From Candidatus Micrarchaeota archaeon (lineage in GTDB: Archaea > B1Sed10-29 > JAJRYS01): a DNA stretch of 35,205 nucleotides. Positions 3,317 through 28,164 of this stretch are shown in pieces. The notes beneath the pieces were generated by a model. That model did no database searches. It was not told the origin of the DNA and worked only from the letters and a program-made list of their open reading frames with translations. Numbering within the stretch: position 1 is the first letter of the stretch; the number at the start of each line of letters is the position of its first letter. Both the position numbers and the translations under genes were made by a program. The DNA is taken from NCBI GenBank assembly GCA_964643685.1, contig CAZXTN010000007.1, positions 1 through 35,205 on the forward strand, given 5' to 3'.

Positions 3317-6300
3317 TTATTTAATTAAATTAGCTTGTGACTGCTGGTTTGCATTCACTTGCTTGGTTTTCATTTTCTGCCTCAACTCTTCGTCGCAAAT
3401 CGGGCAGTATTCATGCTCACCTGCAATGTACCCGTGGATTGGGCAAATGCTGAACGTTGGAGTAATTGACAAGTAAGGCAAAGTGTACTTTTCAAACACT
3501 TTCTTGACAACTGTCTTAGCTGCATCCTTGTCAATTCTCTCTCCGAGGAAAGCATGGAACACTGTTCCGCCAGTGTATCTTGACTGAAGTGGGTCCTGGT
3601 TGTCAAGTATTTCAAACAAGTCGCCGCTCCAGCCGACAGGAGGTAAGCTTGAGTTAGTGTAATAAGGCTTGGCGTCATGCGCTCTGTAAGCTTGTTCATT
3701 AGCTACTATTATTTTAGGGTAATTTTTCTTGTCTATTCTAGCTAGCCTGTAAGTTGCTCCTTCAGCTGGACTTGCTTCTAAGTTGAACACATGCCCAGTT
3801 TCCTCTTGGTATTCAGCCAGCCTGTCTCTCATGAAATCCATGATTTTAATTGCAAACGCGTGGCCTTCAGGATTAGTCAAGTCAACACCCATGAAATTCA
3901 ACAATGCTTCGTTCATTCCAATCAAGCCGATTGTTGAAAAGTGGTTTTTCCAATACTCGTTGTACATGTCCTTGATTCCTCTCAAGTAAAATCTGGAGTA
4001 AGGGTACAATCCTTTTTCAGTGTAATGCTCGATGAATTTCCTTTTCAATTCAAGTGACTCCTTAGCCAAGTCCATTAAGTAAGATAATTTTTCAAAGAAT
4101 TTTTCCTCTGACTTTGACAAGTAGCCAATCTTAGGCAAGTTTATGGTGACAACACCTATGCTTCCTGTCAGAGGATTAGCTCCAAACAAGCCTCCTCCTC
4201 TTTTACGAAGCTCTCTTGTATCCAAACGCAGCCTACAGCACATGCTTCTTACGTCATCAGGGCTCATGTCACTGTTTATGAAGTTGGCAAAGTAAGGAAT
4301 GCCATATTTTCCAGTCATTTCCCAGATAGCATCCTGGTTTTCATTATCCCAGTCAAAATCCTTTGTAATGTTATAAGTTGGAATAGGGAAAGTGAATGGG
4401 CGTCCGCTTGCATCTCCTTCAAGCATCACTTCAGCAAAAGCGCGGTTAATCATGTCCATTTCATCTTGAAAACTGCCGTAAGTATCGTTAGTAATATTCC
4501 CGCCTATGATTGCCGGAAGGTTCTGCATGAACTTAGGCACTTTCAAATCCATTGTAATATTAGTGAAAGGAGTGTTTCCTGTGATGAAAACTTTGCCTTT
4601 TCTTCTTGCGATTATTGTTTCATTTTTTGTATGAGGGCACCAGATTACACCATCATAATCTACTTTTTTAATCTTCTGAATGTAAGTTTCAGAATGCTTG
4701 ATTAAGCGAAGCACAAAAATATCTTTTGTTCCTATTGTTGGTTTTCTAACAAGAGTGGTGAACCCGTATCCTGCATTCACTGCTATGATTTGCAAGGCGT
4801 CGAGAATTTCCCTGCTGGTAGTTGCAATTTTACTTTCTTCAAAACCATCTGCTTTCAAATAAGTTTCTAAAAACAGCTTGGATTGCTCTTGATTCAAGCC
4901 AAGGAGAATTGAAGGGATAAACTTAATTGTTTCCCTTGTTCCAAACCACTTGTGTACTTTCTTAGAACTTTCTGCATTCAGCCTCATTCTTCTAACAGGC
5001 TTTCCTAATCCAGTTGATTCAAATTCAGAGTAAGTTAATTTAAAATGATTCAATAATTTCTTGATTTCATTGTAGTGCTTTGAGTTTTTTTCTTTAGATT
5101 GGTAAATGGAAATCCTGTAACAACTCCTGTGATTAACTGGTTTTTCAACACTTCCTTCAGCAATAATCCATGCCATTAGCTTAATTTGTTCATCACTAAT
5201 TCCTGCTTTTTTGTTTGAATTTTCACCTGCAATTGGAATAATAAAAGGAGATTTTAGCTTGGCAACTTCTTCAATTGGTTCCAATACAAAAGAATCTGAA
5301 TTGAATAATTTTCTCACAACCCTATGTTTAGGTGAAATCAACTGATCCTGAATCCTGTTTTTTAAATTATACATCTTGCCCTTGTATCTTCTTTTAAAAA
5401 CATAAGTGACTTTCTGATCTTCAATTTTACCTGTTTTCAAGTTGAATGTTTTAATTGAACTGCCTTCATTAACCTCATCATAACTTTTCCAGCCTTCAGG
5501 AGTTAAAATTTCAGTGTCCTCAGAAACACATTGAAAACCGACACGAGTAGGCACATTCACATTGTAAATGAACTCCTGCATAGCCTGCTTTACTTCCTTG
5601 TAATCCATTTTGTCATAGGCTATGAAAGGAGCCAAGTAAGTGTCAAAATTAGAGAAAGCCTGCGCTCCAGCAGCTTCACCCTGCAAAGTATAGAAAAAAT
5701 TCACTATCTGCCCTAAAGCTGTTCTGAAATGTTTAGCTGGCTTAGAAGCTACTTTTCCAGGCACTCCCTTGAAACCGACGCTAAGCAAGTCCTGTAAGTC
5801 CCATCCAACGCAATAAGCAGCCAAGCTGCCCAAGTCATGAATGTGAAAATCACCCAGCTTATGCGCGTTTCCAATCTTGCTAGGATACAATTTATTCAGC
5901 CAATACTTGGCTACAAGCTCTGATGAAATGTGAAAATTCAATCCCTGCAGAGAGTAAGTCATGTTCGCATTTTCCTTGACTCTCCAGTCATTCTGGTTCA
6001 AATAAGCTTCCATTAAGTCAAAGTTGCCGAGCATGGAACTAAGTTCCCTCAAATCAGCGTGATTATGCCTGTAAAGAATGTAAGCCTTGGCTGTCTTAGC
6101 ATGCCCCTGTTCAATCAAGACTTTTTCAACAACATCCTGCACATCCTCTACATTAGGAATATTGTCATCATCAAAATTTTTTTCAAGTTCAGCAACGACA
6201 ATTTTAGTCAACTGCCTCGCTCTTTCAATGTCTCTGCCTCCAACAGCCCTAGCAGCTGCAAAAATGGCATTCACAATTCTTTCATCGTCAAAATCAACAA

Positions 6301-6334
6301 CAGTTCCGTCTCTTTTCTTAATTTTCGTCAACAT
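3317..6334 (-). CDS. nrdD: Anaerobic (class III) ribonucleoside-triphosphate reductase with N-terminal ATP cone and an intein; lacks the glycyl-radical loop
   Basis: IKKRDG ATP cone, HIHDL, SMCCRL finger loop, CPIH...CPIC zinc site. Start at 6334 or 6340 after GGAGGT. Confidence 0.95.
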   Translation of the reverse strand: MLTKIKKRDGTVVDFDDERIVNAIFAAARAVGGRDIERARQLTKIVVAELEKNFDDDNIPNVEDVQDVVEKVLIEQGHAKTAKAYILYRHNHADLRELSSMLGNFDLMEAYLNQNDWRVKENANMTYSLQGLNFHISSELVAKYWLNKLYPSKIGNAHKLGDFHIHDLGSLAAYCVGWDLQDLLSVGFKGVPGKVASKPAKHFRTALGQIVNFFYTLQGEAAGAQAFSNFDTYLAPFIAYDKMDYKEVKQAMQEFIYNVNVPTRVGFQCVSEDTEILTPEGWKSYDEVNEGSSIKTFNLKTGKIEDQKVTYVFKRRYKGKMYNLKNRIQDQLISPKHRVVRKLFNSDSFVLEPIEEVAKLKSPFIIPIAGENSNKKAGISDEQIKLMAWIIAEGSVEKPVNHRSCYRISIYQSKEKNSKHYNEIKKLLNHFKLTYSEFESTGLGKPVRRMRLNAESSKKVHKWFGTRETIKFIPSILLGLNQEQSKLFLETYLKADGFEESKIATTSREILDALQIIAVNAGYGFTTLVRKPTIGTKDIFVLRLIKHSETYIQKIKKVDYDGVIWCPHTKNETIIARRKGKVFITGNTPFTNITMDLKVPKFMQNLPAIIGGNITNDTYGSFQDEMDMINRAFAEVMLEGDASGRPFTFPIPTYNITKDFDWDNENQDAIWEMTGKYGIPYFANFINSDMSPDDVRSMCCRLRLDTRELRKRGGGLFGANPLTGSIGVVTINLPKIGYLSKSEEKFFEKLSYLMDLAKESLELKRKFIEHYTEKGLYPYSRFYLRGIKDMYNEYWKNHFSTIGLIGMNEALLNFMGVDLTNPEGHAFAIKIMDFMRDRLAEYQEETGHVFNLEASPAEGATYRLARIDKKNYPKIIVANEQAYRAHDAKPYYTNSSLPPVGWSGDLFEILDNQDPLQSRYTGGTVFHAFLGERIDKDAAKTVVKKVFEKYTLPYLSITPTFSICPIHGYIAGEHEYCPICDEELRQKMKTKQVNANQQSQANLIK
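4574..5530 (-). mobile_element. 319-aa intein with LAGLIDADG homing endonuclease, inside nrdD
   Basis: RVGFQ|CVSEDTEILTPEGWK ... KVFITGN|TPFTN. Cys1, block B SPKH, LAGLIDADG-like MAWIIAEGS and FLETYLKADG, terminal Asn, Thr+1. Confidence 0.93.
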
Positions 6335-6419
6335 CCTCATCCTACCTCCGCATAACAATACAAAAATGAAACAAAACCCCCCCTTGAAAAAATGAGAGTG
6401 ATATTTCAAACTCAAAAAA

Positions 6420-6440: not shown

Positions 6441-6633
6441 GAAAAATTAATTTGTTAATTTGCAAAAGTTAAAAAAGCTTATTTTTGCAATCTTTTTGCT
6501 GAAACAGATAAGCAGTTTGTTTAAAAACAATTAGCTTTTCTAATCTGCTTTTTTTATCTGATTGGTGTTGTTTTCTTTTAATTTTTTCAAAAAAACTGTT
6601 TTTTAAACAAGTATGCCCATTAATTATGCTTGT

Positions 6634-7374
6634 ATGGTGCTAGCTGAAAAAAGCAGTTTCAAAATTTACCAGAGGGTTTTTGACAAATACACTTTCAAAA
6701 GCCTTGCGAAGCTCGTGGATAAAAAATACTTCACTGTGCTTGATTTTCCAATCAGCACTGGAAAAGAAGCTGATGTCTACAAAGCCACTAAAATAAGCAA
6801 GGACAAAACTAAAGAGCCTGTGGCTGTTAAAATTTACAGGATTGAAACAAGCAATTTCAAGAAAATGCAGGAATACATGATAGGAGACCCTCGTTTTGAA
6901 AAAGTCAAAGGAACAAAAAGAGGAGTAGTTGAAGCATGGTGCAGGAAAGAACACAGGAACTTGAAAGACGCTTATGAAGCAGGAGTGAAAGTGCCTAAGC
7001 CAATTGCTTTTGAAAAAAACGTCCTAGTCATGGAGTTTATTGGAAAAAAAGACGGCTCCCCTTATCCTCTTTTAAAAGAAGCTGAAGTCAGAAACTGGAA
7101 AAAGCTGGTTGACAAGATTATCAGATACATTGAAGTTCTTTGGATAAAAGCAGGCATAGTTCACGGCGACTTGAATGAATACAACATAATAATGAAAAAC
7201 CAGTCTCCTGTTTTAATTGATATCGGCCAAGCCATGAGCATAAAGCACCCAATAGCACCTGAACTATTAAAAAGGGATTTAAACCAAATAAACAAGCTAG
7301 CTAAAAAGCACGGAGTAAAAATAAAAACCAATGAAGTATATAACAAGTTAACAAAGGATGTTGATTATGATTAA
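6634..7374 (+). CDS. rio1: RIO1 family atypical Ser/Thr kinase/ATPase (SSU biogenesis)
   Basis: ISTGKEADVY, AVKIYR, HGDLNEYNI, IDIGQA; start 6634 (or 6613); conserved neighbour of dim2-top6B-top6A. Confidence 0.93.
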   Translation: MVLAEKSSFKIYQRVFDKYTFKSLAKLVDKKYFTVLDFPISTGKEADVYKATKISKDKTKEPVAVKIYRIETSNFKKMQEYMIGDPRFEKVKGTKRGVVEAWCRKEHRNLKDAYEAGVKVPKPIAFEKNVLVMEFIGKKDGSPYPLLKEAEVRNWKKLVDKIIRYIEVLWIKAGIVHGDLNEYNIIMKNQSPVLIDIGQAMSIKHPIAPELLKRDLNQINKLAKKHGVKIKTNEVYNKLTKDVDYD

Positions 7375-8551
7375 AGCAGTTTTATTTGATGTAGATGGCA
7401 CAATAATCCCACTCGACTATGTAGTGGAAGGAATAAAAAAAACTTCTAAAAAAATGGGATTGAAAGAACTGACAAAAGAAGAAATTTACTCAAAAATAGT
7501 CGGACACACCTTGACTGAAAGGCTTAAAAACATTTACAAAAACCTTACAGACAAAGACGTTGAAAAATTCAGAAAAATTTACCATGAAGAATACAAAAAA
7601 ATAATTGAAAAACCCTTCCCAAACACAATAAGCACAATCAAAAAACTAAAACAAATGAACCTCAAAATAGGAATAGTTACAACCAAAAGCAGAGAAACAG
7701 CAACAGAAGCATTAAAAGAATCCAAAATACCATTCGAAGCCCTTGTAACAAGCAGCGACGTTGAAAACATCAAGCCATCACCAGAACCAGTGCTGAAAGC
7801 ATGCAAAAAACTCGGAGTAAAACCAGAAGAAGCAGTAATGATAGGAGACCACATATTCGACATGCAGTCAGCAAAAAACGCAGGAGCAACAGCAATTGGA
7901 GTAACAACAGGAGCAAGCACCAGACAAGAGCTTGAAAAAGAAGCAGATTACGTAATAGATGAAATAAGCGAAGCAATTGAAGTGATTGAAAAAATCAAGC
8001 AAAAACAAGATGAAGAACAGGAACTTGAAGAAACATTTGACATAATCAACATTCCAAAAGACAGAGTCGCTGTCCTCATAGGAAAAAAAGGAGAAACGAA
8101 AAAAGCAATTGAAAAACAAACAGACACGAAAATAGAAATCAGTTCAGACGGTGAAGTGATAATCAGAAGAAAAATAAACACCCAGGACCCCCTGAAGCAG
8201 CTGAAAGCGCATGAAATCATAAAAGCAATAGCAAGAGGATTCTCCCCTGAAAAAGCATTCAAGCTGCTGAAGCCTGAAAATTACCTGGAAATAATAAGCC
8301 TGACTGAACACGTTTCAGACAAAAGCCTTAAAAGAGTGCGTTCAAGAATAATAGGAAAAGAAGGCAAGGCAAGGAAATTCATCTCAAGGCTTACAAAAAC
8401 AGAAATAGTTATATATGGCAAAACAGTTTCTATAATAGGAAAAATTGAAAACAATCAAATTGCAAAAAAAGCAATCATGAAAATTGTTGAAGGAGCACCG
8501 CACAGTGCTGTTTTTAGGTTCCTGGAAAGGAACAGAATAAAAATAAAATAA
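7367..8551 (+). CDS. Fusion of a HAD-superfamily phosphatase (N-terminal) and the archaeal Dim2/Pno1 KH-domain rRNA-processing protein (C-terminal)
   Basis: HAD motifs FDVDGT, VTTKS, KPSP, IGDHIFD; acidic linker; KH motifs IPKDRVAVLIGKKG, AIARGFSPEKA, RIIGKEGK, GAPHSAV; single open frame. Confidence 0.9.
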   Translation: MIKAVLFDVDGTIIPLDYVVEGIKKTSKKMGLKELTKEEIYSKIVGHTLTERLKNIYKNLTDKDVEKFRKIYHEEYKKIIEKPFPNTISTIKKLKQMNLKIGIVTTKSRETATEALKESKIPFEALVTSSDVENIKPSPEPVLKACKKLGVKPEEAVMIGDHIFDMQSAKNAGATAIGVTTGASTRQELEKEADYVIDEISEAIEVIEKIKQKQDEEQELEETFDIINIPKDRVAVLIGKKGETKKAIEKQTDTKIEISSDGEVIIRRKINTQDPLKQLKAHEIIKAIARGFSPEKAFKLLKPENYLEIISLTEHVSDKSLKRVRSRIIGKEGKARKFISRLTKTEIVIYGKTVSIIGKIENNQIAKKAIMKIVEGAPHSAVFRFLERNRIKIK

Positions 8552-11933: not shown

Positions 11934-11972
11934 CCAAAACAAATACAAAAAACAACAAAATTAAAAAAAACT

Positions 11973-12046
11973 GCCCTGGTAGCTTAGTCCGGTAAAGCGT
12001 ACGGCTGTTAACCGTAAGACCGCCGGTTCAAATCCGGCCTGGGGCG
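11973..12046 (+). tRNA. tRNA-Asn (anticodon GTT), intronless, CCA not encoded
   Basis: Acceptor GCCCTGG/CTGGGGC, D arm GCTT/AAGC, anticodon arm TACGG-CTGTTAA-CCGTA, T arm GCCGG-TTCAAAT-CCGGC, discriminator G. Confidence 0.97.
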
Positions 12047-12365
12047 TTTTCTAAAAAAGAAAACAACTAAAAAAAGAAGCCACTGAGCAAAGCGAAAATG
12101 GCTTTAATTCTTTTAGTGCAGTTTTTCTTTTCTAAAGAAAAACGCTTGAGGCGACAGCCGATTAAGTTTTTCTTTTAAGAAAAAGTGCCGAAGATCCTGC
12201 CTGGGGCGCTACAAACTCTAAGAGTTTGTATCAGTGAGGCTATCTCAATCGCCTAATGGCTCAAACGTTTTTCTTGTAAAAAACAAGAAAAACTTCACTT
12301 TGTTCGATAGCCATGTTCAAGGCTCTTGCGAGCCTTGAAAAGGTTTTGCCTCTAACGAGGCAAAA
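12046..12365. repeat. Cluster of at least 7 short inverted repeats plus a second copy of the tRNA 3' end (12194-12208)
   Basis: Hairpins at 12046-12064, 12077-12104, 12121-12143, 12210-12230, 12267-12293, 12316-12339 and 12344-12365; ATCCTGCCTGGGGCG matches the tRNA's ATCCGGCCTGGGGCG at 14/15. Confidence 0.85.
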
Positions 12366-12438: not shown

Positions 12439-12777
12439 ATGCAGTCGTGGAGCAGAGTAGTAGCAGCAGTGACATTAATCTTCATACTAATAGGAATAGG
12501 TACTTTTGCTTACTCCCAACTAGAAGGATGGAACTTAATAGACTCCCTTTACTTCTCAACAACCACCTTGACTACAATCGGCTACGGCGACTTACATCCA
12601 ACCCATAACATTTCAAAACTATTCACAGCTGTTTACATAATAATAGGAGTAGCATTGACTCTAGTTGCATTAACTTCAATAGCCACTTACTTCTTTGAAA
12701 AAAATTACGAAAGAACAGCAGAAACAGTTGAAAAAAACATCTGGAACAAAATCAAAAGAAAAAAATACAGAATCTAA
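12439..12777 (+). CDS. Minimal 2-TM potassium channel (KcsA-like pore, no RCK domain)
   Basis: DSLYFSTTTLTTIGYGDLHP selectivity filter between two TM helices; GGAG RBS. Confidence 0.93.
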   Translation: MQSWSRVVAAVTLIFILIGIGTFAYSQLEGWNLIDSLYFSTTTLTTIGYGDLHPTHNISKLFTAVYIIIGVALTLVALTSIATYFFEKNYERTAETVEKNIWNKIKRKKYRI

Positions 12778-13469
12778 CTCTTTTTAATTTCAAAAATTTT
12801 CTGTTCAAATTCAAATTTTCCATTTGTTAAATTTTCTTTGAAAAAAGCTAGAATCTCTTTTTTAGCTTTTTCATATTCAAAAGGACAAGATTCAAAAAAC
12901 AACTTAAGCAAATTAAACAGTTCTTCATATGAAGAAAAATAAAGCTCTGAATGCAAAGAATGCTCGCTAAAATCAACACCTAAACCCTGCAAAACTTTTT
13001 TAACCTCCTCATAAGTAGATGCATATTCTTTGCCTGAAACATTTGAAAACATTTTTTTAAAAGAACCATAATCGCTTCCAGTTCCATTCACAACAATGAA
13101 AGCTTTTCCTCCTTCTTTTAAATGAGAAATTATCTTCTTCAAAGAGCCTCTTTTATCATTAAAATAATAAAAAACATGAGAAGCAATTATAACATCAAAT
13201 TTTTCACTAAGTTCAACATCCTCCCAATCACTTTTTATAAAAAAAACATTATCAGGAAAAAAAGAAGAAAAAGATTCTTTTTCAACAACCACGTACCTGC
13301 TAAAAAGAGAAGAAAGGGAGTTATAAAAAAAAGCAAAATCACCAGGCCCAATTTCAAGACAAGATTCCTTTTTTTCTCCAATAAGATTTTTAATGCCTTT
13401 AACTAAAACCTCTTTTTCATTTGACTTTTCAATAAAGGAATCAAACAAAGCAGGATTAAATTGAACCAT
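12774..13469 (-). CDS. Class I SAM-dependent methyltransferase
   Basis: CLEIGPGDF motif I, FDVIIASHVFYY, LKEGGK; likely start MVQFNP. Confidence 0.85.
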   Translation of the reverse strand: MVQFNPALFDSFIEKSNEKEVLVKGIKNLIGEKKESCLEIGPGDFAFFYNSLSSLFSRYVVVEKESFSSFFPDNVFFIKSDWEDVELSEKFDVIIASHVFYYFNDKRGSLKKIISHLKEGGKAFIVVNGTGSDYGSFKKMFSNVSGKEYASTYEEVKKVLQGLGVDFSEHSLHSELYFSSYEELFNLLKLFFESCPFEYEKAKKEILAFFKENLTNGKFEFEQKIFEIKKS

Positions 13470-13504
13470 GATAAAAATAACAACCTGAAAATTTATAAAA
13501 ATAA

Positions 13505-14815
13505 TCAATTCAACTCGCTTATTCTTTTTCTCAAGTTCTCCAAAGCAAGCTTAGTAGCAACTGGGTTCTTCTCATCCTTCACTTGCTCGTAAACGCTTTC
13601 ATCAAATAAGTTAATCAACTCAATGCCAAGTTCAATGCATGCTTTTTTCAACGCCTGGTAAGTTTCGCTTGAAGGCTTCAAGTAACTGAAATACTTCTCA
13701 TACTTATGAACAGACAAGTAATTCTTAATCCTCCTGCTAATTACTTCAACGTACTCCTTCTTAATTTCAGGAGTCTCCTCCCATTCAGGCCAATCATATG
13801 CATTAAAAGGATAGTAATTGTCAAACTCCATTGGAATAACGCCAGGCGTGCTGAGAACAACCAAATGCGTCTTAGAAACAAAACCAGGAAACTCATTCAA
13901 CACTTTACTAATTGCCTTATGAGTCTTTGAACGAGAATAAGGCTTTTTGAAACTGCATTGCAAAAACAAAACCCACTTCTTCTCTTTTGGTTTTTCATAA
14001 AACCTCTGGAAGTAATCCTGCCAAACTTCAAAAAACCTGTGATTCAAAATTTCACTGTTAGCTCCTTTAAGCAGCTTCCTCTGTTCAGGTGGAAACTTAG
14101 GCACGAACAAGTAATTCTGAGAATCAGTTTCAATATTATCATACTTTTCAACATGCTTGGAAACAATCTCCTCAAACTCACGGGTAGTAATAGGGCTCCA
14201 GCCACCTTCAACCCACAGTTTAAACAGCTTCGACTTGCTGTGAGGAAAAGTATTAATCAAAACCAAGCTATCGCCTGGCTCTGCATGCTCTTCCACAAAC
14301 TCCACACTCCTGTCAAGCAACTCAACAGAGCCGAAAGGAATATTAACCATCAAGTAAGTGCGCACATGCATGCCATTCTTATGAAGCAACTCAACTGCTT
14401 TTAAATAATCCTCTACAGTAAAGCCCTTTTCATATTTTTTCAGAACTTCATTGTCAGCGCATTCCAAGCCAATGCCAACAGTCAAGTCAAAATCACTGAA
14501 GTCACTTAAGTTCTCCTGCGTTACATACTCAGGACGCGCTTCCACAACCAGCTTCTTAATTCCCTTTTGCTTCAAGAAATTCGCTAGCCATTGCCTGAAT
14601 TCACGTGGAAACTGCGCGTCGTCTAAAAAACTTCCTGACACGAAAATTTTCACAGTATCATAGCCTTCAAAAGACTCTGACTCTATCCTCTTTTTCAAAA
14701 AATCAATGTTAACAGGAGCTTTCAACTGCCCCCAGCCGCATGCAAAGCATTTCCTCCAACTGCATTGCCCAGAAGCCAAAATAATCTTCTTAATTCCTTC
14801 ATTGTTTACAGTCAT
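13505..14815 (-). CDS. RaSEA-like archaeosine radical SAM enzyme fused to a DUF5591 (ArcS-type) domain
   Basis: N-terminal CSWRKCFACGW, KIFVSGSFLDD, VEARPEYV, GIGLECAD, KGFT; C-terminal LQCSFKKPYSRSKTH and STPGVIPMEFDNYYPFNAYD. Confidence 0.8.
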   Translation of the reverse strand: MTVNNEGIKKIILASGQCSWRKCFACGWGQLKAPVNIDFLKKRIESESFEGYDTVKIFVSGSFLDDAQFPREFRQWLANFLKQKGIKKLVVEARPEYVTQENLSDFSDFDLTVGIGLECADNEVLKKYEKGFTVEDYLKAVELLHKNGMHVRTYLMVNIPFGSVELLDRSVEFVEEHAEPGDSLVLINTFPHSKSKLFKLWVEGGWSPITTREFEEIVSKHVEKYDNIETDSQNYLFVPKFPPEQRKLLKGANSEILNHRFFEVWQDYFQRFYEKPKEKKWVLFLQCSFKKPYSRSKTHKAISKVLNEFPGFVSKTHLVVLSTPGVIPMEFDNYYPFNAYDWPEWEETPEIKKEYVEVISRRIKNYLSVHKYEKYFSYLKPSSETYQALKKACIELGIELINLFDESVYEQVKDEKNPVATKLALENLRKRISELN

Positions 14816-14832: not shown

Positions 14833-15600
14833 TTAATTCATGATTTGCTTGACTAAATCCACCAAGTCCTCGTCTTTCAACTCCCTTACTTTCCTGTCAT
14901 CTTGAACCTGCTTGTTGAAAGCTATTTTCACTGCATTTGAAACAGTCTTGTTCTTGTACCTGAACAATTCCCTTACAAGCAAATTGAAGTTGTCGTCCTT
15001 CACAACACCCTTCTTCCTCTTCAACAAAACAACAACTGAATCAACTTTCGGCTGAGGATAAAAAGAAACACGCGGAACAACTTCCTTGATTTCAACTTCA
15101 TTATAATGCTGAGCCATGACACTCAACCTGCCATAACCCTCCTGCCCAGGACGCTTAATCATCCTGTACCCAAACTCCTTTTGAAAAAATAAAACAGCCA
15201 ACTCAAAATCATAATTCAACAGCTTCTCGCTCAAAGGGCCTGAAATAGAATAAGGAATATTAGAAACAATCTTGTTAAAAAAAGGAATGTCAGTTTTTAA
15301 CACGTCGCTGAAAATCAATTCAACATTACTTAAATCACTTAACTCCTCTTTCAAAACAGGAACAAGCTTCTTATCCCTTTCAATAGCAATTACTTTGCCT
15401 GCTTTTTCAGCAATTTCACGAGTTAAAAAACCAAGCCCAGGTCCTATTTCAAGAACAGTGTCTTTCTTGCTAACATCAGCGTACCTCACAGCCCTTTCAA
15501 TAACGCTTTTGTTAATTATAAAATACTGATCTAAAACAGGGCTTGCTCTAAAACCATACTTGGCATAAATCTGCCTTACTTTCTGAGTCAAATTAATCAT
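14833..15600 (-). CDS. ksgA: 16S rRNA m6,2A dimethyltransferase KsgA/Dim1
   Basis: LDQYFI, VLEIGPGLGFLT, IVSNIPYSIS, QKEFG.R, FYPQPKVDS. Confidence 0.95.
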   Translation of the reverse strand: MINLTQKVRQIYAKYGFRASPVLDQYFIINKSVIERAVRYADVSKKDTVLEIGPGLGFLTREIAEKAGKVIAIERDKKLVPVLKEELSDLSNVELIFSDVLKTDIPFFNKIVSNIPYSISGPLSEKLLNYDFELAVLFFQKEFGYRMIKRPGQEGYGRLSVMAQHYNEVEIKEVVPRVSFYPQPKVDSVVVLLKRKKGVVKDDNFNLLVRELFRYKNKTVSNAVKIAFNKQVQDDRKVRELKDEDLVDLVKQIMN

Positions 15601-15716
15601 TTCAACACCTTTTTTTCAAATTTTCCTACAAACAAAAAAAAATACTTAAAAGAAAAGAAGAAACAAGAAAAACAAAAAAAACTAAAAAAAAATAATTAAA
15701 AAAAAAAATTAAACAA

Positions 15717-16289
15717 TCAATACCTTCTGTTCCTCCTGTTTCTCCTAGGCGCAGCTGGCCTTACAAACAAGTAATGCTTCTCACCGCCCATCATCTCCTG
15801 AATAATCCTGTCAACAATCAACCTCTTAGGATCAGGCATTAAATTAATCCTGTCAACAATATCCTTAAAACTCTCAAAAGGCTTAACTTCCCTTTCTTTC
15901 AAAATCTCCTTCATATGCTTCTTACCAATACCAGGCAACAACTCAAGAGAATGCTGCCTAACAGTAATAGGCCCAGCCTTGTTGAAAAAATTAACAAAAA
16001 ACTCCTCCTTATCAGCCACAATCTTCTCCAAATTAGCTTTCAATTCACTCCTAGCAGTAGCAGTCAACTTCTGATAATCCAACCTGCCTTTAATAAACTT
16101 AATCTTATCCCTCTTCTCAGGCCCAATATACACTTCCTCGCCAATGCTAATACTAGCCTCATCCCTAGCAACCAACTCCAACAAAGCCAAATACTTAGGC
16201 CCAAGAGCCTGAACAACCGGCTCCTTCCTAAAAGAACTCACATACCCATTCGGCAAAAAATCCAACACAATAGCACTATCCTCACGCAT
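15717..16289 (-). CDS. DUF655 family putative RNA-binding protein (OB fold plus HhH)
   Basis: AIVLDFL..G, LLEL, FFNKAGPITVRQHSLELLPGIGKK, PFESF; conserved position between rpoF and ksgA. Confidence 0.9.
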   Translation of the reverse strand: MREDSAIVLDFLPNGYVSSFRKEPVVQALGPKYLALLELVARDEASISIGEEVYIGPEKRDKIKFIKGRLDYQKLTATARSELKANLEKIVADKEEFFVNFFNKAGPITVRQHSLELLPGIGKKHMKEILKEREVKPFESFKDIVDRINLMPDPKRLIVDRIIQEMMGGEKHYLFVRPAAPRRNRRNRRY

Positions 16290-16321
16290 AAAAACCAACA
16301 CCCCAAAAAAGGATTTTTCAC

Positions 16322-16657
16322 TCAATCCTCTTTAAACAAGGAAACAATCTCCTTAACCTTGTCATCAGTCAATTCAAACCTAGACTTCTCAAAGAAAAGC
16401 TTCACCAACTCAGGCGAAGTCGGACGAACATTAACCAAACTAACAGCAGTCTCCTCATCAACGCCCATTTCCTTAAGCTTCTCAACAAGCTTCAAAGCAG
16501 AATCAACCCTGCCCTTGCCAAACTCCTTAACATACTCCAAAGTCACTTTCTGCTCGTAACTCAACTCCTCATCCTCCTCAGCTTTCTTCTTATCCTCTAA
16601 AATCTTCCTAACTTCCTGCAAAGTCAAAAACCTTGAACCAACAACTTCAGTACTCAT
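16322..16657 (-). CDS. rpoF: RNA polymerase subunit F (Rpo4)
   Basis: LSYEQKVTLEYVKEF, A..LVNVRP pattern; synteny with rpl21e. Confidence 0.9.
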   Translation of the reverse strand: MSTEVVGSRFLTLQEVRKILEDKKKAEEDEELSYEQKVTLEYVKEFGKGRVDSALKLVEKLKEMGVDEETAVSLVNVRPTSPELVKLFFEKSRFELTDDKVKEIVSLFKED

Positions 16658-16670
16658 TCAAAAACCACCT

Positions 16671-16970
16671 TTACATTTTAACAGGACTCAAATGCGCAGG
16701 ATGAACAATAATCCTCTTCAACGCATTCATATCCCTAACTTCAACAATAAAACAAGAACCGCGTTTTCCAACAACAGTTCCAGTCGCGCCATTAAACCTC
16801 CTATGAGGCATGGCACTATGAACACTTGAATTAATCTTAACATGCACCTTCTCCCCTTCACTAAACTCCTGAAGCATCTTATTAACACTAGGCATGCCCT
16901 TATCCCTCTTATGCTTACCAGCCACATGCCTGCTCTTAGCCCTAGGGCCCTTGTGCTTTGCCTTAACCAT
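16671..16970 (-). CDS. rpl21e: 50S ribosomal protein L21e
   Basis: G.R.KSR, F.EGEKVHVKINSSVH..MPHRRFNG.TG.V.GKRG, HPAHL; GGAGG RBS. Confidence 0.96.
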   Translation of the reverse strand: MVKAKHKGPRAKSRHVAGKHKRDKGMPSVNKMLQEFSEGEKVHVKINSSVHSAMPHRRFNGATGTVVGKRGSCFIVEVRDMNALKRIIVHPAHLSPVKM

Positions 16971-20805: not shown

Positions 20806-20884
20806 ATCTTCTTATTTTCTATTTAGTTATTTAAAAGAATTGTTTAAACAAAGCTTTTATTAAAAAAAAGTTATAATCTTGTTG

Positions 20885-22402
20885 ATGAAAAAAGAAGAAA
20901 CGTTGAATTTAGAAGAAAGATTATGGAAAACTGCTGATAAACTAAGAAATAGTATGGATGCTGCGGAGTACAAAAACGTTGTGCTCGGACTAATTTTTTT
21001 AAAGTACATCTCAGATAAGTTTAAAATTTTACATGACAAACTTGAAAAAGAAGAAAATGCAGATCCAGAGGATCCTGATGAATACAAAGCAGAAAATGCT
21101 TTCTGGGTGCCAAAAAAAGCAAGATGGGAGTACATTCAATCAAAAGCAAAACTACCTGAAATTGGAAAAATAATAGATGAAGCAATGGATGAAATAGAAA
21201 CAAAAAATCTTTCACTAAGAGGGATATTACCAAAGGATTATAACAGGCCAACACTTGATAAAAGAAAACTCGGCGAATTAATTGATTTAATAAGTACAAT
21301 TGGATTTGCAGATGAAAAAGAAATAGACTTACTTGGAAGAGTATATGAGTACTTCTTAGGAAAATTTGCAGATGCAGAAGGAAAAAGAGGAGGACAGTTC
21401 TACACTCCAGAAAGTATAGTAAAACTCTTAGTATACATGATAAGACCATACAAAGGAAGAGTATATGATCCATGTGCCGGTTCAGGGGGAATGTTTGTAC
21501 AATCAGAAAAGTTCATAAAAGCACACCAAGGAAAAATAAAAGAGATAAGCATTTACGGACAAGAAAGCAACCCAACAACCTGGAAACTCTGTAAAATGAA
21601 CTTAGCAATAAGAGGATTAGACAACTCACAAATAAAACTAGGAGACTCATTTCATGATGACCAACACAAAGACTTAAAAGCAGATTACATCCTAGCAAAC
21701 CCTCCTTTTAATGTTTCAGATTGGGGAGCAGAACACTTACAAAATGATGTGCGATGGAAATATGGAATTCCACCAAAAGGAAACGCTAACTTTGCATGGG
21801 TACAACACTTCATCCACCACTTATCACCAAAAGGAGTAGCTGGCTTTGTACTAGCAAACGGTTCAATGAGTTCAAACACTTCAAATGAAGGAGAAATTAG
21901 AAAAAAAATAATACAAGCAGATTTAATTGACTGTATTGTAGCTTTACCTTCTCAACTATTTTATAATACAATGATTCCAGCTTGTCTCTGGTTCATACGA
22001 AGAAGCAAAAACAAAAGGAAAGGAGAAATTTTGTTTATTGACGCTCGTAACATGGGACACATGATTAATCGTCGTAACAGAGAACTAAGCAAAGAGGATA
22101 TTTTAAAAATTTCTGACACTTATCATGCTTGGAGAGGGGAAGAAACAGAACAAAAAGACTTCGGAGAATACAAGGATATTCTTGGTTTTTGTAAAAGTGC
22201 AACACTTGAAGAAGTTGAAAAACAAGGCTTTGTCTTAACCCCTGGAAGATACGTTGGAATTCCAGAGGAAGAGGAAGACGAAAAAGAATTTGAAGAAAAA
22301 ATGAAAAAACTAACCTCACAGTTAGCTGAACAAATAAAAGAAGCACAAAAACTAGACCAAGAAATAAAGAAAAACCTAAAGGCGATTGGATTTGACTTAT
22401 AA
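20885..22402 (+). CDS. hsdM: Type I restriction-modification methyltransferase subunit M (m6A)
   Basis: [36 protein letters not shown]. Confidence 0.97.
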
Positions 22403-23195
22403 CATACAAGAAAATTTGAAAGGAAAAAAGCTTATAAGAGAGCATAATTTTAAACTAGTTTATGTTGGACCAAGTTTTGAGTCAGGAATTAAAATAAATT
22501 TTTTAGTTGAAAATCTAAAGGCTATTCATGAATTAGTTCATACAATAAATGAAATAGATTCAAAAGCTAAAAAAAATAAGATTAAAGAAATAAGAGTAAT
22601 ACCAAAAAAAGGAAGCATTGAAGAAGAAATAGTGATAATATTTTCTAATCCTGAAGTTAGATCAATGATAGTCAACATTATCATAGCTCTATTTTTTTAT
22701 TTAATAGGTAGAAGAGATAATGCTAAGAACAGAAAAGAGATTAAAGAGATGAATGAAAAATTAAATGAACTTATCTCATTAAATCAACTTAAAAACATTA
22801 AAGAGTTAACAAATCCCTTAGAACAAAAAAAAGATTCCCTAAAGATTATTGAAAATAACTCTACAAAACTTGAAGTAAACTATCAAAATAAAAAATTAAT
22901 AAATAAATCAATAAAAGAAATAGAAAAAGAGATCAAGAAAGAAGAAACTGAAGTTGAATTAGAAGGATATATCTCAGCTATGGATCTAGATACAAAAAGA
23001 TTAAAGTTCCATCCAAAAAATGATAAGAAAGCATATCCATTATCCTTCACACAACCACTTAAATTAATAATCCCTCTTCTTGGAAAAGAGATAAAAGCAA
23101 AGTTACGTGTAACAAAAATTAGAAGTAGGATAATAAAATTACACTTATTAGATTATAAATTATTACAAAGGGGACTAAATGAGTTTACAGAATAA
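22386..23195 (+). CDS. Hypothetical protein inserted between hsdM and hsdS
   Basis: 269-aa ORF overlapping both neighbours; central hydrophobic helix; start uncertain (TTG). Confidence 0.7.
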
Positions 23196-24423
23196 AACTA
23201 AATTTAAAAAAACTGAAATAGGATTAATTCCAGAAGATTGGGAAGTTAAAGGATTAAACAGTTTGGGAAAAGTAAGCACGGGCAAGGGAACAAAAAAATT
23301 ACTTCTCGGTAAATATAAAATAATCGGGTCTAATGGGGTTTTAGGGTATACTAACAACTATTTGGAAAATGATAACTTAATTTTTACAGGAAGAGTCGGC
23401 ACAATTGGTTCGGTAAATTTTCTTAAAAAAGAAAGAGTTTGGTTATCAGATAACACTTTATACTTTAAGACAGAAGATTTAGGATTGTTAAAATTTATTT
23501 ATTACTCATTGAAAAGAATTGACTTTTCTTATTTAAATGTAGGTAGCACTCAACCATTAATTAAACAGTCAGATTTTAGAAGATTAAAAATAGGTATTCC
23601 AACTCACAAAACAGAAATAAATGCTATTGTTAAGATTCTTTCTGATTTGGATGCTAAGATTGAGTTGTTGCAGAAGCAGAATGAAACCTTAGAAAAAATT
23701 GGTCAGGCGTTGTTTAAGCGTTGGTTTGTTGATTTTGAATTTCTTAATGAAGAAGGCAAGCCTTACAAATCTTCAGGCGGAAAAATGGTTTATAACAAAG
23801 AATTAGGAAAAGAGATTCCGAAAGGATGGGAAGTTTCAGAAGTAGGTAAAGAATTAAAAACTATTTTAGGTGGAACTCCTAGTAAAACAAGAAAAGAATA
23901 TTGGATTAATGGAACAATTCCTTGGATTAATTCAGGTGCATTAAATGCTTTTCCGGTTATGAATGCTTCACAATACATTACAAAAGAAGGGTTAAAAAAT
24001 TCTGCTGCAAAGCTTATGCCAAGAGGAACTATTGTTTTACCTTTTGTAATCTCTATTGGAAAAAAAGTGAATATTAGTATATTAGGTATAGACTCATCAG
24101 GAAATCAATCTGTTTTAGGGATATTAGAAAATAAGTTATTTTCATCAGCTTTTATTTACTATTGGATACAACATAAAAAACAGAAATTATACTTATCTGC
24201 AACAGGAGGAGCACAACAACACATTAACAAAAAAGAAGTTGATTCATTAGAATTATTAATTCCTTCAAAACAAGTTTTAATTGAATTTAATAATATCTCA
24301 ATGAAATTAATAAAAAAAATAATTTCAAATGCTGAACAAATTCAATCTCTTGAACAAATTCGTGATTCACTACTTCCAAAATTAATGACAGGAAAAATAA
24401 GGGTAAATTATGAAAAAGATTAA
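23179..24423 (+). CDS. hsdS: Type I restriction-modification specificity subunit S
   Basis: FKKTEIGLIPEDW / EIPKGW repeats, two TRDs, LDAKIELL conserved helix, RDSLLPKLMTGKIRV. Confidence 0.95.
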   Translation: MSLQNKTKFKKTEIGLIPEDWEVKGLNSLGKVSTGKGTKKLLLGKYKIIGSNGVLGYTNNYLENDNLIFTGRVGTIGSVNFLKKERVWLSDNTLYFKTEDLGLLKFIYYSLKRIDFSYLNVGSTQPLIKQSDFRRLKIGIPTHKTEINAIVKILSDLDAKIELLQKQNETLEKIGQALFKRWFVDFEFLNEEGKPYKSSGGKMVYNKELGKEIPKGWEVSEVGKELKTILGGTPSKTRKEYWINGTIPWINSGALNAFPVMNASQYITKEGLKNSAAKLMPRGTIVLPFVISIGKKVNISILGIDSSGNQSVLGILENKLFSSAFIYYWIQHKKQKLYLSATGGAQQHINKKEVDSLELLIPSKQVLIEFNNISMKLIKKIISNAEQIQSLEQIRDSLLPKLMTGKIRVNYEKD

Positions 24424-25054
24424 AGAGTTGATTTATGAAAAAGAGAGTTTTGGGGAGTTAAAACTACTTCTTATTCAATTGGAGAAATTTATAAAAGAGG
24501 ATAATTATAACGCTTCAATTGAAACTTCAAAGGCAGTTATTGAGTCCATTTGTAAAACAATATTAAAACAACTTAATATAAATATTCAAAAAAATATAAA
24601 GTTTCCAAAATTAGTTAAAATCGTTTTAAATAACTCCCCTTTTTTAAAAGAACTTGAAAAAGAGGATAAAGAGAGCACAAAAAAAATAATCGGTTCTATT
24701 TTAACACTTTCAAACTCAATCGCAAATCTAAGAAATAATTACAATTTTATTTCTCATGGACAAGGACCATCATTTAAATTATCAAATAAAAGAATAAGTG
24801 AATTATGCCTTCAATCAACTGAATTAATTGGCTCTTTTTTATTAGATATTCATTTAAACTATACCCCACCCTCTTATTATAATGAAGTTAGATATGAAGA
24901 TCATGAAGATTTTAACAGATGGTTTGATGAACAAAATAGCAATTTAAAAATTGGAAAATATGAGTTTTTACCTAGTAAGGTTTTATATACAGATATCGAA
25001 TTTTATAAACAAGAGTTACAATCTTTTAAAGAAAAGGGAGATTTTGTAATATGA
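24410..25054 (+). CDS. Abortive-infection (Abi_C, HEPN-related) family protein
   Basis: [13 protein letters not shown] and [14 protein letters not shown] motifs; embedded in the hsd operon. Confidence 0.75.
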
Positions 25055-28000: not shown

Positions 28001-28164
28001 ATTGGACTTTACGAGAAAATGTACAAGCAAAACTAAGGGTGATGGTAAAAAGACTCTTAAAAAAATATGGCTACCCCCCAGACAAAAGAAAAATGGCGGT
28101 GGAGCTTGTTTTAAAACAAGCAGAAGAACAAGCAAAAGAAGAATCAGTTAGTAAAATGAACTAA
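25051..28164 (+). CDS. hsdR: Type I restriction endonuclease subunit R
   Basis: [56 protein letters not shown]. Confidence 0.97.

What the first reader, a model, noticed from the sequence alone, without database searches (positions are those of the whole stretch)
13505..14815. Single-chain archaeosine synthase candidate: RaSEA radical SAM fused to an ArcS-type DUF5591 domain
Seen: residues ~1-235 carry RaSEA-like motifs (CX4CX2C cluster motif, KIFVSGSFLDD, EARPEYV, GIGLE, KGFT). Residues ~245-436 carry CSFKKPYSRSKTH and TPGVIPMEF...YPFNAYD, matching the ArcS core pattern PCS.RKPYS.S.SH / SPLG.VP.E....YP...YD. No TGT barrel or PUA domain is present. Known: in Euryarchaeota ArcS attaches lysine to preQ0-tRNA and RaSEA, a separate complex partner, cleaves it to archaeosine (G+15). 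Inference: a streamlined two-step enzyme in one 436-aa chain that would define the minimal lysine-transfer domain. Its position directly after ksgA fits an RNA-modification role.
Basis: partly seen in the sequence, partly recalled or inferred. Interest (0 to 1): 0.8.

Follow-up and report, generated by a model that had tools for sequence, protein, structure and literature searches.

The report
Single-chain archaeosine synthase candidate
This gene joins, in one small protein, shortened versions of the two enzymes that other archaea use as a complex to finish the tRNA base archaeosine, and the same fusion is common in tiny symbiotic archaea.

Summary
Window 13505-14815 (minus strand) is a 436-aa ORF. 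Residues about 1-232 are a RaSEA-type radical SAM domain (TIGR01210 E 3e-30). Residues about 236-436 are an ArcS C1/DUF5591 domain (Pfam E 3e-19, above cut-off). No TGT, C2 or PUA domain is present.

It is a conserved family, not an accident. 116 of the 120 best homologues carry both domains. 234 relatives occur in species genomes, mainly DPANN and Altiarchaeota, with a few in Thermoproteota and Asgard.

In the window's 695-kb genome this ORF is the only DUF5591 or RaSEA-like gene. arcTGT is present; QueF-like, QueC and QueD are absent.

In its phylum the fusion and arcTGT are both present in 24 of 31 genomes and both absent in 3. arcTGT lies divergently upstream in 25 of 80 related loci.

The radical SAM domain forms a sister clade to canonical RaSEA and lacks its N-extension and Cys-rich tail.

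The most likely function is a one-chain amine-transfer plus radical-cleavage synthase for G+15. No biochemistry exists. I found no accessible paper describing the fusion, but the 2019 RaSEA paper could not be read.

The parts
13505..14815 (-). Whole ORF, 436 aa plus stop: RaSEA-like radical SAM domain fused to an ArcS C1/DUF5591 domain
   Evidence: ORF list. Pfam and NCBIfam hits. 116 of 120 best homologues have both Pfam domains at lengths of 356-457 aa. AlphaFold2 mean pLDDT 93.5, pTM 0.87.
14120..14815 (-). N-terminal radical SAM domain (residues about 1-232), RaSEA-type but trimmed
   Evidence: TIGR01210 match over residues 10-175, equal to model positions 17-196 of 313. In A2, 25 columns are invariant across all 10 rows; 24 of them lie in the radical SAM domain (M1-P160), among them SGS60-62, D65, E92, R94, P95, GLE116-118, KGF130-132, Y154 and P160. 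Foldseek best matches are Elp3 radical SAM domains (6iad, E 1.6e-10).
14738..14764 (-). Three-cysteine [4Fe-4S]/SAM cluster motif CSWRKCFAC (C18, C23, C26; CX4CX2C)
   Evidence: Translation. C26 is invariant and C18/C23 are at least 90% conserved in 40 family members. These cysteines align with the three cysteines of canonical RaSEA, which are spaced CX7-9CX2C.
13508..14110 (-). C-terminal ArcS C1 / DUF5591 domain (residues 236-436), including a helical tail (about 400-436) in place of the C2 and PUA domains
   Evidence: Pfam DUF5591, 69.7 bits. NF040592 ArcS model positions 248-410 of 575. PDB 2q07 (AF0587) matches by sequence at E 4.5e-7 and by fold at E 1.3e-6.
13919..13960 (-). ArcS signature QCSFKKPYSRSKTH, corresponding to the published motif PC-X3-KPY-X2-S-X2-H with P changed to Q in this lineage
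   Evidence: Translation. C287, K291, P292, Y293 and S296 are invariant, and P286 and H299 are at least 90% conserved, in 40 members. The motif aligns to canonical ArcS and to AF0587. The motif as published was seen in passages of PMC10516641 and PMC5699537.
14833..15600 (-). Upstream neighbour ksgA/rsmA. This is context only, as the last gene of an L21e-Rpb4-DUF655-KsgA cluster at 14833-16970.
   Evidence: TIGR00755, 211 bits against a cut-off of 171. Pfam hits for the neighbours. The synteny is shared by only 6 of 80 related loci.

Best explanation
The ORF encodes a one-polypeptide archaeosine synthase that works downstream of arcTGT.

1. arcTGT, encoded on another contig, puts the preQ0 base at position 15 of tRNA. 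The base is presumably salvaged, because the genome lacks QueC and QueD.
2. The C-terminal ArcS-type C1 domain adds an amine donor to the nitrile carbon of preQ0. By analogy with Thermococcus ArcS the donor is the amino group of lysine.
3. The N-terminal RaSEA-type radical SAM domain uses a [4Fe-4S] cluster held by C18/C23/C26, plus SAM, to cleave the adduct. This leaves the formamidine group of archaeosine (G+15).

Covalent fusion replaces the obligatory ArcS-RaSEA complex. The TGT-like, C2 and PUA domains of ArcS are dispensed with, as are the N-extension and Cys-rich tail of RaSEA.

What is shown: the domain identities, motif conservation, family conservation, genomic linkage to arcTGT, and the absence of alternative G+ enzymes. 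What is inferred: the substrate, the donor, the product and the order of steps.
For: Domains and motifs:
- Both domains are identified and their key residues are conserved in 40 aligned members.

Conserved family:
- 273 homologues have E <= 1e-3, and 116 of the 120 listed carry both Pfam domains.
- 234 relatives occur in species genomes.

Own genome (695 kb, 91.75% complete):
- This ORF is the only DUF5591 hit and the only RaSEA-like hit.
- There is one arcTGT with a PUA domain, at 515 bits.
- There is no QueF-like gene and no QueC/GAT-QueC; the two weak hits are ThiI-like and TtuA/NcsA.
- 20 of 21 tRNA genes have G at inferred position 15.

Phylum co-occurrence, 31 genomes:
- Fusion and arcTGT are both present in 24.
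- Both are absent in 3, which make up one genus.
- The 4 discordant genomes are 61-81% complete.
- 0 of 31 have a canonical RaSEA over the cut-off.

Neighbourhood:
- A full-length arcTGT lies upstream and divergent in 25 of 80 related loci. That is 25 of the 63 loci with at least 2 kb of upstream flank. In 6 loci the gap is only 32-53 bp.
- One of these neighbours was checked and scores 493 bits on TIGR00432.

Five distant genomes (Thermoproteaceae, Asgard, Altiarchaeales, Desulfurococcales, Thermofilaceae):
- 5 of 5 have the fusion. 5 of 5 have arcTGT, 4 of them above the cut-off. 0 of 5 have a canonical RaSEA.

Independent links between the two domains:
- P0146 has the reverse order, DUF5591 then RaSEA.
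- P0174 has ArcS C1-C2-PUA followed by RaSEA.
- Adjacent split genes occur in 3 of 151 sampled Thermoproteota.

Structure:
- The AlphaFold2 model is compact and confident, with pLDDT 93.5 and pTM 0.87.

Published biochemistry (PMC11298593, abstract and passages):
- Free ArcS is inactive, and only the ArcS-RaSEA complex transfers lysine.
- ArcS acts even on preQ0 nucleoside 5'-monophosphate, so the tRNA-binding domains are not needed for the chemistry.
Against: - There is no biochemical or genetic data for any member of this family.
- Both domains score far below NCBI's equivalog cut-offs: 105.5 against 212, and 64 against 440.
- The radical SAM domain is a separate clade from canonical RaSEA (98% SH-aLRT split). 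It lacks the canonical N-terminal extension and the C-terminal HNCxxCD...CxC segment, and its cluster loop is shorter. Its chemistry could therefore differ.
- No recognisable RNA-binding domain is present.
- The C domain is 42% identical to a DUF5591 protein of a Methanobacterium virus. It also resembles the stand-alone viral ArcS2 type. That type reportedly yields dG+ in E. coli without RaSEA (PMC10516641 passages).
- M. jannaschii ArcS was reported to use NH4+, Gln or Asn rather than lysine (cited in PMC11298593), so the donor is uncertain.
- In this genome arcTGT is not adjacent to the fusion; it is on contig C1.
- No preQ0 synthesis genes or YhhQ-type transporter were found, so the source of the base is unknown.
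Confidence: 0.72

Rival explanations
1. Same pathway, different chemistry. The fusion acts on preQ0-tRNA, but it uses another amine donor or makes a product other than plain G+, for example a stable adduct or a further-modified 7-deazaguanine. This could follow from its radical SAM domain being a divergent, trimmed relative of RaSEA.
For: - The radical SAM domain forms a distinct clade.
- It lacks the Cys-rich tail and the N-extension, and has CX4CX2C spacing against CX7-9CX2C.
- It scores below the equivalog cut-offs.
- Different donors have been reported for different ArcS enzymes (PMC11298593 passage).
Against: - 25 columns are invariant across all 10 rows of A2 (fusion and canonical RaSEA); 24 of them lie in the radical SAM domain, including the three cluster cysteines.
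- The ArcS motif is intact.
- No other G+ enzyme is present in the genomes tested, although arcTGT is kept.
Confidence: 0.15
2. The C domain alone is the amidinotransferase, like viral ArcS2 or the ArcS activity originally reported with NH4+/Gln. The radical SAM domain then has a different or accessory role. Alternatively, the enzyme acts on DNA or on free base rather than tRNA.
For: - The C domain is closest to stand-alone and viral DUF5591 proteins (42% identity to Methanobacterium virus PhiF1; 31% to STSV1/2).
- Phage nt-1 ArcS2 with DpdA2 gave dG+ in E. coli (PMC10516641 passages).
Against: - The three cluster cysteines and the SAM-domain residues are conserved across the family.
- The only TGT-family gene in the genome is a PUA-bearing tRNA arcTGT. 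DpdA matched only weakly, at 41 bits, on that same protein.
- The fusion is tightly linked to arcTGT.
- Repeated independent fusions or adjacency of DUF5591 with RaSEA-type domains argue for a joint reaction.
Confidence: 0.08
3. The protein has a function unrelated to 7-deazaguanine: a generic radical SAM enzyme with a DUF5591 scaffold.
For: Only that no member has been characterised, and that the scores lie below the family cut-offs.
Against: - The ArcS catalytic motif is conserved.
- RaSEA is by far the best radical SAM match (E 3e-30, against 2e-12 for Elp3).
- The fusion co-occurs with arcTGT and is lost together with it.
- It is divergently adjacent to arcTGT.
Confidence: 0.05

Closest known systems
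ArcS-RaSEA archaeosine synthase complex of Thermococcus kodakarensis (alpha subunit a lysine transferase, beta subunit a radical SAM lyase)
   Same: - The same two catalytic modules are present. The ArcS C1 domain carries the PCX3KPYX2SX2H-type motif. The radical SAM domain matches TIGR01210 best and has three aligned cluster cysteines.
- It has the same genomic partner, arcTGT.
- The physical association that the complex needs for activity (PMC11298593) is made permanent here by fusion.
   Different: - It is one 436-aa chain instead of about 575 plus about 330 aa.
- It has no TGT-like N domain, no C2 and no PUA.
- The radical SAM part lacks the canonical N-extension and the Cys-rich C-terminal segment, and has a shorter cluster loop.
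- The radical SAM domain forms a separate clade.
- It scores below both equivalog cut-offs.
- The donor and the product are untested.
AF0587 of Archaeoglobus fulgidus (PDB 2q07), a split ArcS C-terminal part of unknown function in the PDB record
   Same: The DUF5591 core aligns, including the ...PC..RKPY..S.TH... and SSP.V.P.EF..YP..YD motifs (E 4.5e-7). The fold also matches (E 1.3e-6).
   Different: AF0587 is 306 residues long and only its first ~120 align to the C domain; recalled, not tested: its C-terminal part is a C2+PUA extension. The fusion instead has a 35-residue helical tail, and the fusion family carries a YPFxxYDWxExEET signature.
Viral stand-alone ArcS2 (DUF5591 only; Vibrio phage nt-1, Sulfolobus viruses STSV1/2)
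   Same: It has a minimal C1-only catalytic domain without TGT or PUA parts (PMC10516641 passages). The sequences are similar at 31-42% identity.
   Different: ArcS2 works with DpdA on DNA and has no radical SAM partner in the same chain. The fusion has a RaSEA-type domain and sits in genomes whose only TGT-family gene is the tRNA arcTGT.
Elp3 radical SAM domain (PDB 6iad, 6ia8)
   Same: It is the closest solved fold and sequence for the N domain (E 4e-11 by sequence; E 1.6e-10 by Foldseek).
   Different: Elp3 carries a GNAT acetyltransferase domain and modifies U34. NCBIfam scores Elp3 far lower than RaSEA on this protein (2.4e-12 against 3.1e-30).

Membership tests
RaSEA (NCBIfam TIGR01210, archaeosine synthase beta subunit) | Radical SAM three-cysteine cluster motif aligned with that of canonical RaSEA | tested here: met
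   C18, C23 and C26 align with the three cysteines of five canonical or near-canonical RaSEA sequences. The spacing is CX4CX2C against CX7-9CX2C. The cysteines are conserved in 40 family members.
RaSEA (NCBIfam TIGR01210, archaeosine synthase beta subunit) | Score at or above the curated equivalog cut-off (212.15 bits) | tested here: not met
   The score is 105.5 bits. 0 of 31 genomes of the phylum and 0 of 5 distant genomes reach the cut-off. Canonical controls P0165, P0176 and P0181 score 310-356 bits.
RaSEA (NCBIfam TIGR01210, archaeosine synthase beta subunit) | Full-length architecture, including the N-terminal extension and the C-terminal Cys-rich segment (HNCxxCD...CxC) | tested here: not met
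   Only model positions 17-196 of 313 are matched. Alignment A2 shows that both segments are absent from the fusion.
RaSEA (NCBIfam TIGR01210, archaeosine synthase beta subunit) | Placement inside the canonical RaSEA clade | tested here: not met
   In the quick IQ-TREE of 64 rows, a branch with 98% SH-aLRT separates two groups. One holds 24 rows: 20 fusions, P0129, P0144 and two probable fragments. The other holds 40 rows: 38 stand-alone RaSEA, P0146 and P0174. The tree is unrooted, so 'sister' is a reading of it and not a proof.
RaSEA (NCBIfam TIGR01210, archaeosine synthase beta subunit) | Physical association with ArcS, and cleavage of preQ0-Lys-tRNA to G+-tRNA | not testable with these tools
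   Association with an ArcS C1 domain is covalent here. The activity needs anaerobic biochemistry.
ArcS (NCBIfam NF040592, archaeosine synthase alpha subunit) | C1 domain (Pfam DUF5591) above the gathering threshold | tested here: met
   69.7 bits against a cut-off of 26.
ArcS (NCBIfam NF040592, archaeosine synthase alpha subunit) | Motif PC-X3-KPY-X2-S-X2-H (as printed in PMC10516641 and PMC5699537) | tested here: met
   The sequence is QCSFKKPYSRSKTH, so every position is met except P changed to Q. P is at least 90% conserved in the family, and C, K, P, Y and S are invariant.
ArcS (NCBIfam NF040592, archaeosine synthase alpha subunit) | TGT-like N-terminal domain plus C2 and PUA domains | tested here: not met
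   No TGT, TGT_C2 or PUA hit at E <= 0.01. The ArcS model is matched only at positions 248-410 of 575, with 64 bits against a cut-off of 440.
ArcS (NCBIfam NF040592, archaeosine synthase alpha subunit) | Lysine transfer to preQ0-tRNA | not testable with these tools
   Needs an enzyme assay.
Archaeosine (G+15) pathway | arcTGT present in the same genome, and G at tRNA position 15 | tested here: met
   TIGR00432 scores 515 bits against a cut-off of 350 on G000 contig C1. 20 of 21 ARAGORN tRNA genes have G at inferred position 15.
Archaeosine (G+15) pathway | A source of preQ0 (QueC/QueD/QueE, or a transporter) | tested here: not met
   There is no QueD hit. The QueC hits are ThiI-like and TtuA/NcsA. 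There is no YhhQ/Vut_1 hit. QueE was not tested. The genome is 91.75% complete, so salvage by an unknown route has to be assumed.
Viral ArcS2 / DpdA DNA-modification system | Stand-alone DUF5591 protein working with a DpdA DNA transglycosylase | tested here: not met
   The domain is fused to a radical SAM domain. The only TGT-family gene is arcTGT, on which DpdA scores only 41 bits against a cut-off of 200.

The most novel reading that the evidence does not exclude
This monophyletic radical SAM-C1 fusion is the main archaeosine synthase of DPANN and Altiarchaeota, and of scattered Thermoproteota and Asgard archaea, and it has not yet been described. It is a self-sufficient 430-aa enzyme that marks the minimal catalytic cores of both ArcS and RaSEA. 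It shows that the PUA, C2 and TGT-like domains and RaSEA's Cys-rich tail are dispensable. Its confidently predicted inter-domain packing gives the first usable picture of the unsolved ArcS-RaSEA interface.
Probability: 0.5. Interest if true: 0.6.

Novelty: new variant of a known kind. Interest (0 to 1): 0.5.

Why it matters
Archaeosine synthesis after arcTGT is known through three routes: ArcS with RaSEA, QueF-like, and GAT-QueC. This fusion would be a fourth genetic solution built from the parts of the first. It would be the form used by many genome-reduced archaea.

It gives natural fused-partner ('Rosetta stone') support for the ArcS-RaSEA partnership. It also defines how little of each subunit is needed.

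It offers a single small protein for structural and mechanistic work on a complex whose structure is not among the PDB matches found here. The authors of PMC11298593 state that such structural studies are still needed.

It also raises two open questions. How do symbionts without preQ0 synthesis obtain the base? How is tRNA recognised without a PUA domain?

Tried and rejected
**ksgA context.** ksgA adjacency as evidence of function was rejected as general evidence. It is shared by only 6 of 80 related loci, all near relatives that carry the L21e-Rpb4-DUF655-KsgA cluster.

**Downstream methyltransferase.** The class I methyltransferase at 12774-13508 overlaps the ORF by 4 nt. I considered it as an operon partner. 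No homologue was found in 0 of 80 related loci, so it was not pursued.

**C-domain tree.** The tree (66 rows, quick IQ-TREE) did not resolve the origin of the C domain. Canonical ArcS (3 rows) groups with the fusions at only 84% SH-aLRT, and the deep forks have 4% support. No claim is built on it.

**QueC hits.** The weak QueC hits were checked. They are ThiI-like and TtuA/NcsA proteins.

**Rows left out of the trees.**
- For the N tree I used 40 of the 56 eligible stand-alone rows (the first 40).
- I used 11 full-length representative fusions, 8 hand-picked fusions, and the query.
- Fragments under 400 aa were left out of the fusion group.

**Literature.**
- Searches for RaSEA, ArcS, archaeosine, DUF5591, PF17884, TIGR01210, DPANN and fused/fusion found no paper that describes this fusion.
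- PMC11298593 contains neither 'fused' nor 'fusion'.
- The key primary papers could not be read. These are Yokogawa 2019 (Nat Chem Biol), Phillips 2010 (JBC) and Phillips 2012 (ACS Chem Biol).
- Supplements are closed. They may list domain architectures, so 'not described' holds only for what I could search.
[quoted passage not shown] That statement may or may not refer to proteins of this kind.

I therefore could not measure the distance between the cluster site and Cys287, or map conservation onto the interface.
Full report
**Observation.** The window holds a 436-aa ORF at 13505-14815 on the minus strand. It has an ATG start 17 nt after the stop of the upstream gene. CSWRKCFAC (C18, C23, C26) lies at nt 14738-14764. 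QCSFKKPYSRSKTH lies at nt 13919-13960.

The profile hits are as follows:
- Pfam Radical_SAM: residues 42-167, 41.5 bits.
- Pfam DUF5591: residues 265-400, 69.7 bits against a cut-off of 26.
- No other Pfam family at E <= 0.01, so there is no TGT barrel, C2 or PUA domain.
- NCBIfam TIGR01210 RaSEA is the best match for the N half: E 3.1e-30, residues 10-175 on model positions 17-196 of 313. The next family, Elp3, is at 2.4e-12.
- NCBIfam NF040592 ArcS is the best match for the C half: E 8e-18, residues 233-401 on model positions 248-410 of 575.
- Both NCBIfam scores are well below the equivalog cut-offs (105.5 against 212, and 64 against 440).

**A conserved family.** A search of 5.8 billion proteins gave 273 hits at E <= 1e-3. 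Of the 120 listed, 116 carry both PF04055 and PF17884, at 356-457 aa and 43-87% identity. The other 4 are annotated with PF17884 alone. The sources name them only 'DUF5591 domain-containing protein', 'radical SAM protein' or, by automatic annotation, 'archaeosine synthase'.

In a 40-member alignment the following residues are conserved:
- Invariant: C26, SGS60-62, D65, Q68, E92, GLE116-118, K130, N188, P191, H192, C287, K291, P292, Y293, S296, and a YPF..Y.W.E..ET block.
- At least 90% conserved: C18, C23, P286 and H299.

This protein and its nearest relatives have Q in place of the motif's first P.

Among species genomes, 234 stretches encode a relative. The 80 best are full length at 39-63% identity. 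Their record titles name Micrarchaeota, Aenigmatarchaeota, Iainarchaeum, Nanoarchaeota, Nanohaloarchaea, Altiarchaeota, Parvarchaeota and Woesearchaeota. They also name Thermoproteales, Desulfurococcales, Thermofilaceae, Thermodiscus, Methanomethylicota and an Asgard archaeon. In a sample of 151 Thermoproteota genomes the full-length fusion occurs in only 3, so it is mainly a DPANN and Altiarchaeota feature.

**Pathway logic in the window's genome.** The genome is 695 kb in 12 contigs and 91.75% complete.
- This ORF is its only DUF5591 match and its only RaSEA-like match.
- It has one TGT-family gene, a 567-aa protein that scores 515 bits on TIGR00432 (cut-off 350) and ends in a PUA domain.
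- QueF/QueF-like is absent and QueD is absent.
- The two weak QueC hits are ThiI-like and TtuA/NcsA proteins.
- No YhhQ-type transporter was found.
- ARAGORN finds 21 tRNA genes, and 20 of them have G at the inferred position 15.

The organism therefore keeps the enzyme that inserts preQ0. It has the target base in its tRNAs. It has no other known enzyme to finish archaeosine. It must obtain preQ0 from outside.

**Linkage to arcTGT.** In the 31 genomes of the window's phylum:
- 26 have one DUF5591 match each. In 25 of these it lies in the same 417-464-aa frame as a strong TIGR01210 match. In the 26th the two halves sit on two contig ends.
- None of the 31 has a RaSEA match above the cut-off.
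- arcTGT is present in 26.
- Fusion and arcTGT are both present in 24.
- Both are absent in 3, which are all the members of one genus.
- The 4 discordant genomes are only 61-81% complete.

In the 80 related loci, a full-length arcTGT homologue (36-44% identity) lies upstream on the opposite strand in 25. That is 25 of the 63 loci with at least 2 kb of upstream DNA, and 23 of the 51 with at least 4.9 kb. In 6 loci the gap is 32-53 bp, which is the layout of a shared divergent promoter. One such neighbour was checked and scores 493 bits on TIGR00432.

I also tested five distant genomes that carry the fusion. All five have arcTGT (4 above the cut-off), and none has a canonical RaSEA. Their extra DUF5591 matches are mostly the C1 domain of arcTGT itself.

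By contrast, ksgA is the neighbour in only 6 of 80 loci.

**Differences from the canonical enzymes.** I aligned the fusion with five stand-alone RaSEA sequences; three of them were scanned against TIGR01210 and score 310-356 bits.
- The fusion shares the three cluster cysteines and the core residues.
- It lacks the 30-45-residue N-terminal extension.
- Its cluster loop is shorter (CX4CX2C against CX7-9CX2C).
- It lacks the C-terminal segment with four cysteines (HNCxxCD...CxC). The C1 domain begins where that segment would be.

In a tree of 64 radical SAM domains, a 98% SH-aLRT branch separates two groups. One group holds all 20 fusions, two variants and two probable fragments. The other holds 38 stand-alone RaSEA sequences. 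This orientation of the fusion therefore looks like a single old event and a distinct subfamily.

Other architectures show that the two domains were joined more than once:
- P0146 (680 aa) has DUF5591 first and a near-full RaSEA second.
- P0174 has ArcS positions 317-564 (C1-C2-PUA) running straight into RaSEA positions 2-199. Both of these fall on the stand-alone side of the tree.
- Three of the sampled Thermoproteota have adjacent separate genes for a roughly 235-aa C1 protein and a roughly 245-275-aa radical SAM protein.

The C domain aligns to canonical ArcS and to AF0587 (PDB 2q07) through the signature motif. It carries a YPFxxYDWxExEET signature that it shares with stand-alone DUF5591 proteins. 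It is 42% identical to a protein of Methanobacterium virus PhiF1 and 31% identical to STSV1/2 proteins. The C-domain tree is unresolved.

**Structure.** AlphaFold2 with the 40-row alignment gives mean pLDDT 93.5 and pTM 0.87. 382 of 436 residues have pLDDT of at least 90, and only the cluster-binding N-terminal 40 residues fall to 63-78. A pTM this high for a two-domain chain implies a confidently packed unit.

Foldseek finds Elp3 radical SAM domains first (E 1.6e-10) and AF0587 for the C half (E 1.3e-6). None of the 15 PDB sequence matches, and none of the listed fold matches, is a RaSEA or an ArcS-RaSEA complex.

**Mechanism.** The published work on Thermococcus (PMC11298593, abstract and passages) reports the following:
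- ArcS adds lysine to preQ0-tRNA.
- RaSEA converts the adduct to G+.
- Free ArcS is inactive, and only the complex transfers lysine.
- ArcS accepts even preQ0 nucleoside 5'-monophosphate as a substrate.

These facts fit a fused minimal enzyme well. The partner needed for activity is built in, and tRNA-binding domains are not required for the chemistry.

I therefore commit to the two-step, one-chain archaeosine synthase, with confidence 0.72 for a role in G+15 formation. The donor (lysine) and the exact radical step rest on analogy, and I hold them at roughly 0.6.

The main rival keeps the pathway but allows a different donor or product, given the trimmed and divergent radical SAM domain (0.15). 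An ArcS2-like autonomous C domain, or a DNA or free-base substrate, is less likely (0.08). The cluster cysteines are conserved, and the only TGT-family gene is the tRNA enzyme.

**Novelty.** The components and the reaction are known. The fusion is visible in databases under generic names. Within the searchable library I found no paper that describes it.

The paper that discovered RaSEA 'through comparative genomics' (my recollection of its abstract) and the two Phillips papers could not be read. I rate it a new variant of a known kind, of moderate interest. A specialist would find it useful rather than astonishing, but it makes the minimal catalytic unit and the subunit interface directly testable.

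Noticed in passing
window 3317-6415 (-): This is a 1032-aa anaerobic ribonucleotide reductase (ATP-cone plus NRDD). The NRDD model is matched in two stretches, and the best covers only residues 614-1010. The protein is unusually long, so it may hold an insertion, possibly an intein.
   Followed up: no
window 7358-8551 (+): This 397-aa protein combines a HAD-type hydrolase domain (residues 5-206) with KH domains of the KRR1/PNO1 type (residues 230-388). It follows a RIO kinase gene at 6613-7374.
   Followed up: no
window 20879-28164 (+) and 28379-29335 (-): A complete type I restriction-modification system is present: HsdM at 20879-22402, HsdS at 23179-24423 and HsdR at 25051-28164. It lies in a low-GC stretch (0.27-0.31), and a PD-(D/E)XK nuclease gene follows it.
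   Followed up: no
window 12774-13508 (-): A class I SAM methyltransferase ORF has a longest frame that overlaps the fusion's end by 4 nt. No homologue lies next to the fusion in any of 80 related loci.
   Followed up: partly
window 11972-12047 (+) and genome G000: A tRNA-Asn gene lies 1.4 kb downstream of the fusion. Genome-wide, ARAGORN finds only 21 tRNA genes, and 12 of them are predicted to have introns. One of these is a 375-nt intron call in tRNA-Leu(CAG).
   Followed up: partly
proteins P0146, P0174, P0129, P0144: Other architectures exist. P0146 (680 aa) has DUF5591 followed by RaSEA. P0174 (497 aa, probably a fragment) has ArcS C1-C2-PUA followed by RaSEA. P0129 (635 aa) has about 200 extra residues between the two domains. 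P0144 (544 aa) has a 316-residue N-terminal part with no family match ahead of the radical SAM domain.
   Followed up: partly
G042:C5:4829-6039, G064:C6:22806-24001, G105:C5:54204-55441: In three of the sampled Thermoproteota genomes, a roughly 235-aa stand-alone C1 gene and a roughly 245-275-aa radical SAM gene are adjacent on one strand. Both gene orders occur, so this is a split counterpart of the fusion.
   Followed up: partly
genomes G024, G025, G026 (one genus of the window's phylum): All three lack both arcTGT and the fusion, at 84-89% completeness. This suggests the whole archaeosine step was lost in that genus.
   Followed up: partly
phage record MK994522.1, 72536-72979 (hit H1): Methanobacterium virus PhiF1 encodes a DUF5591-like stretch that is 42% identical to the fusion's C domain over 152 residues. 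It is annotated 'putative archaeosine tRNA-guanine transglycosylase'. Two Synechococcus phages also match, at 34% identity.
   Followed up: no
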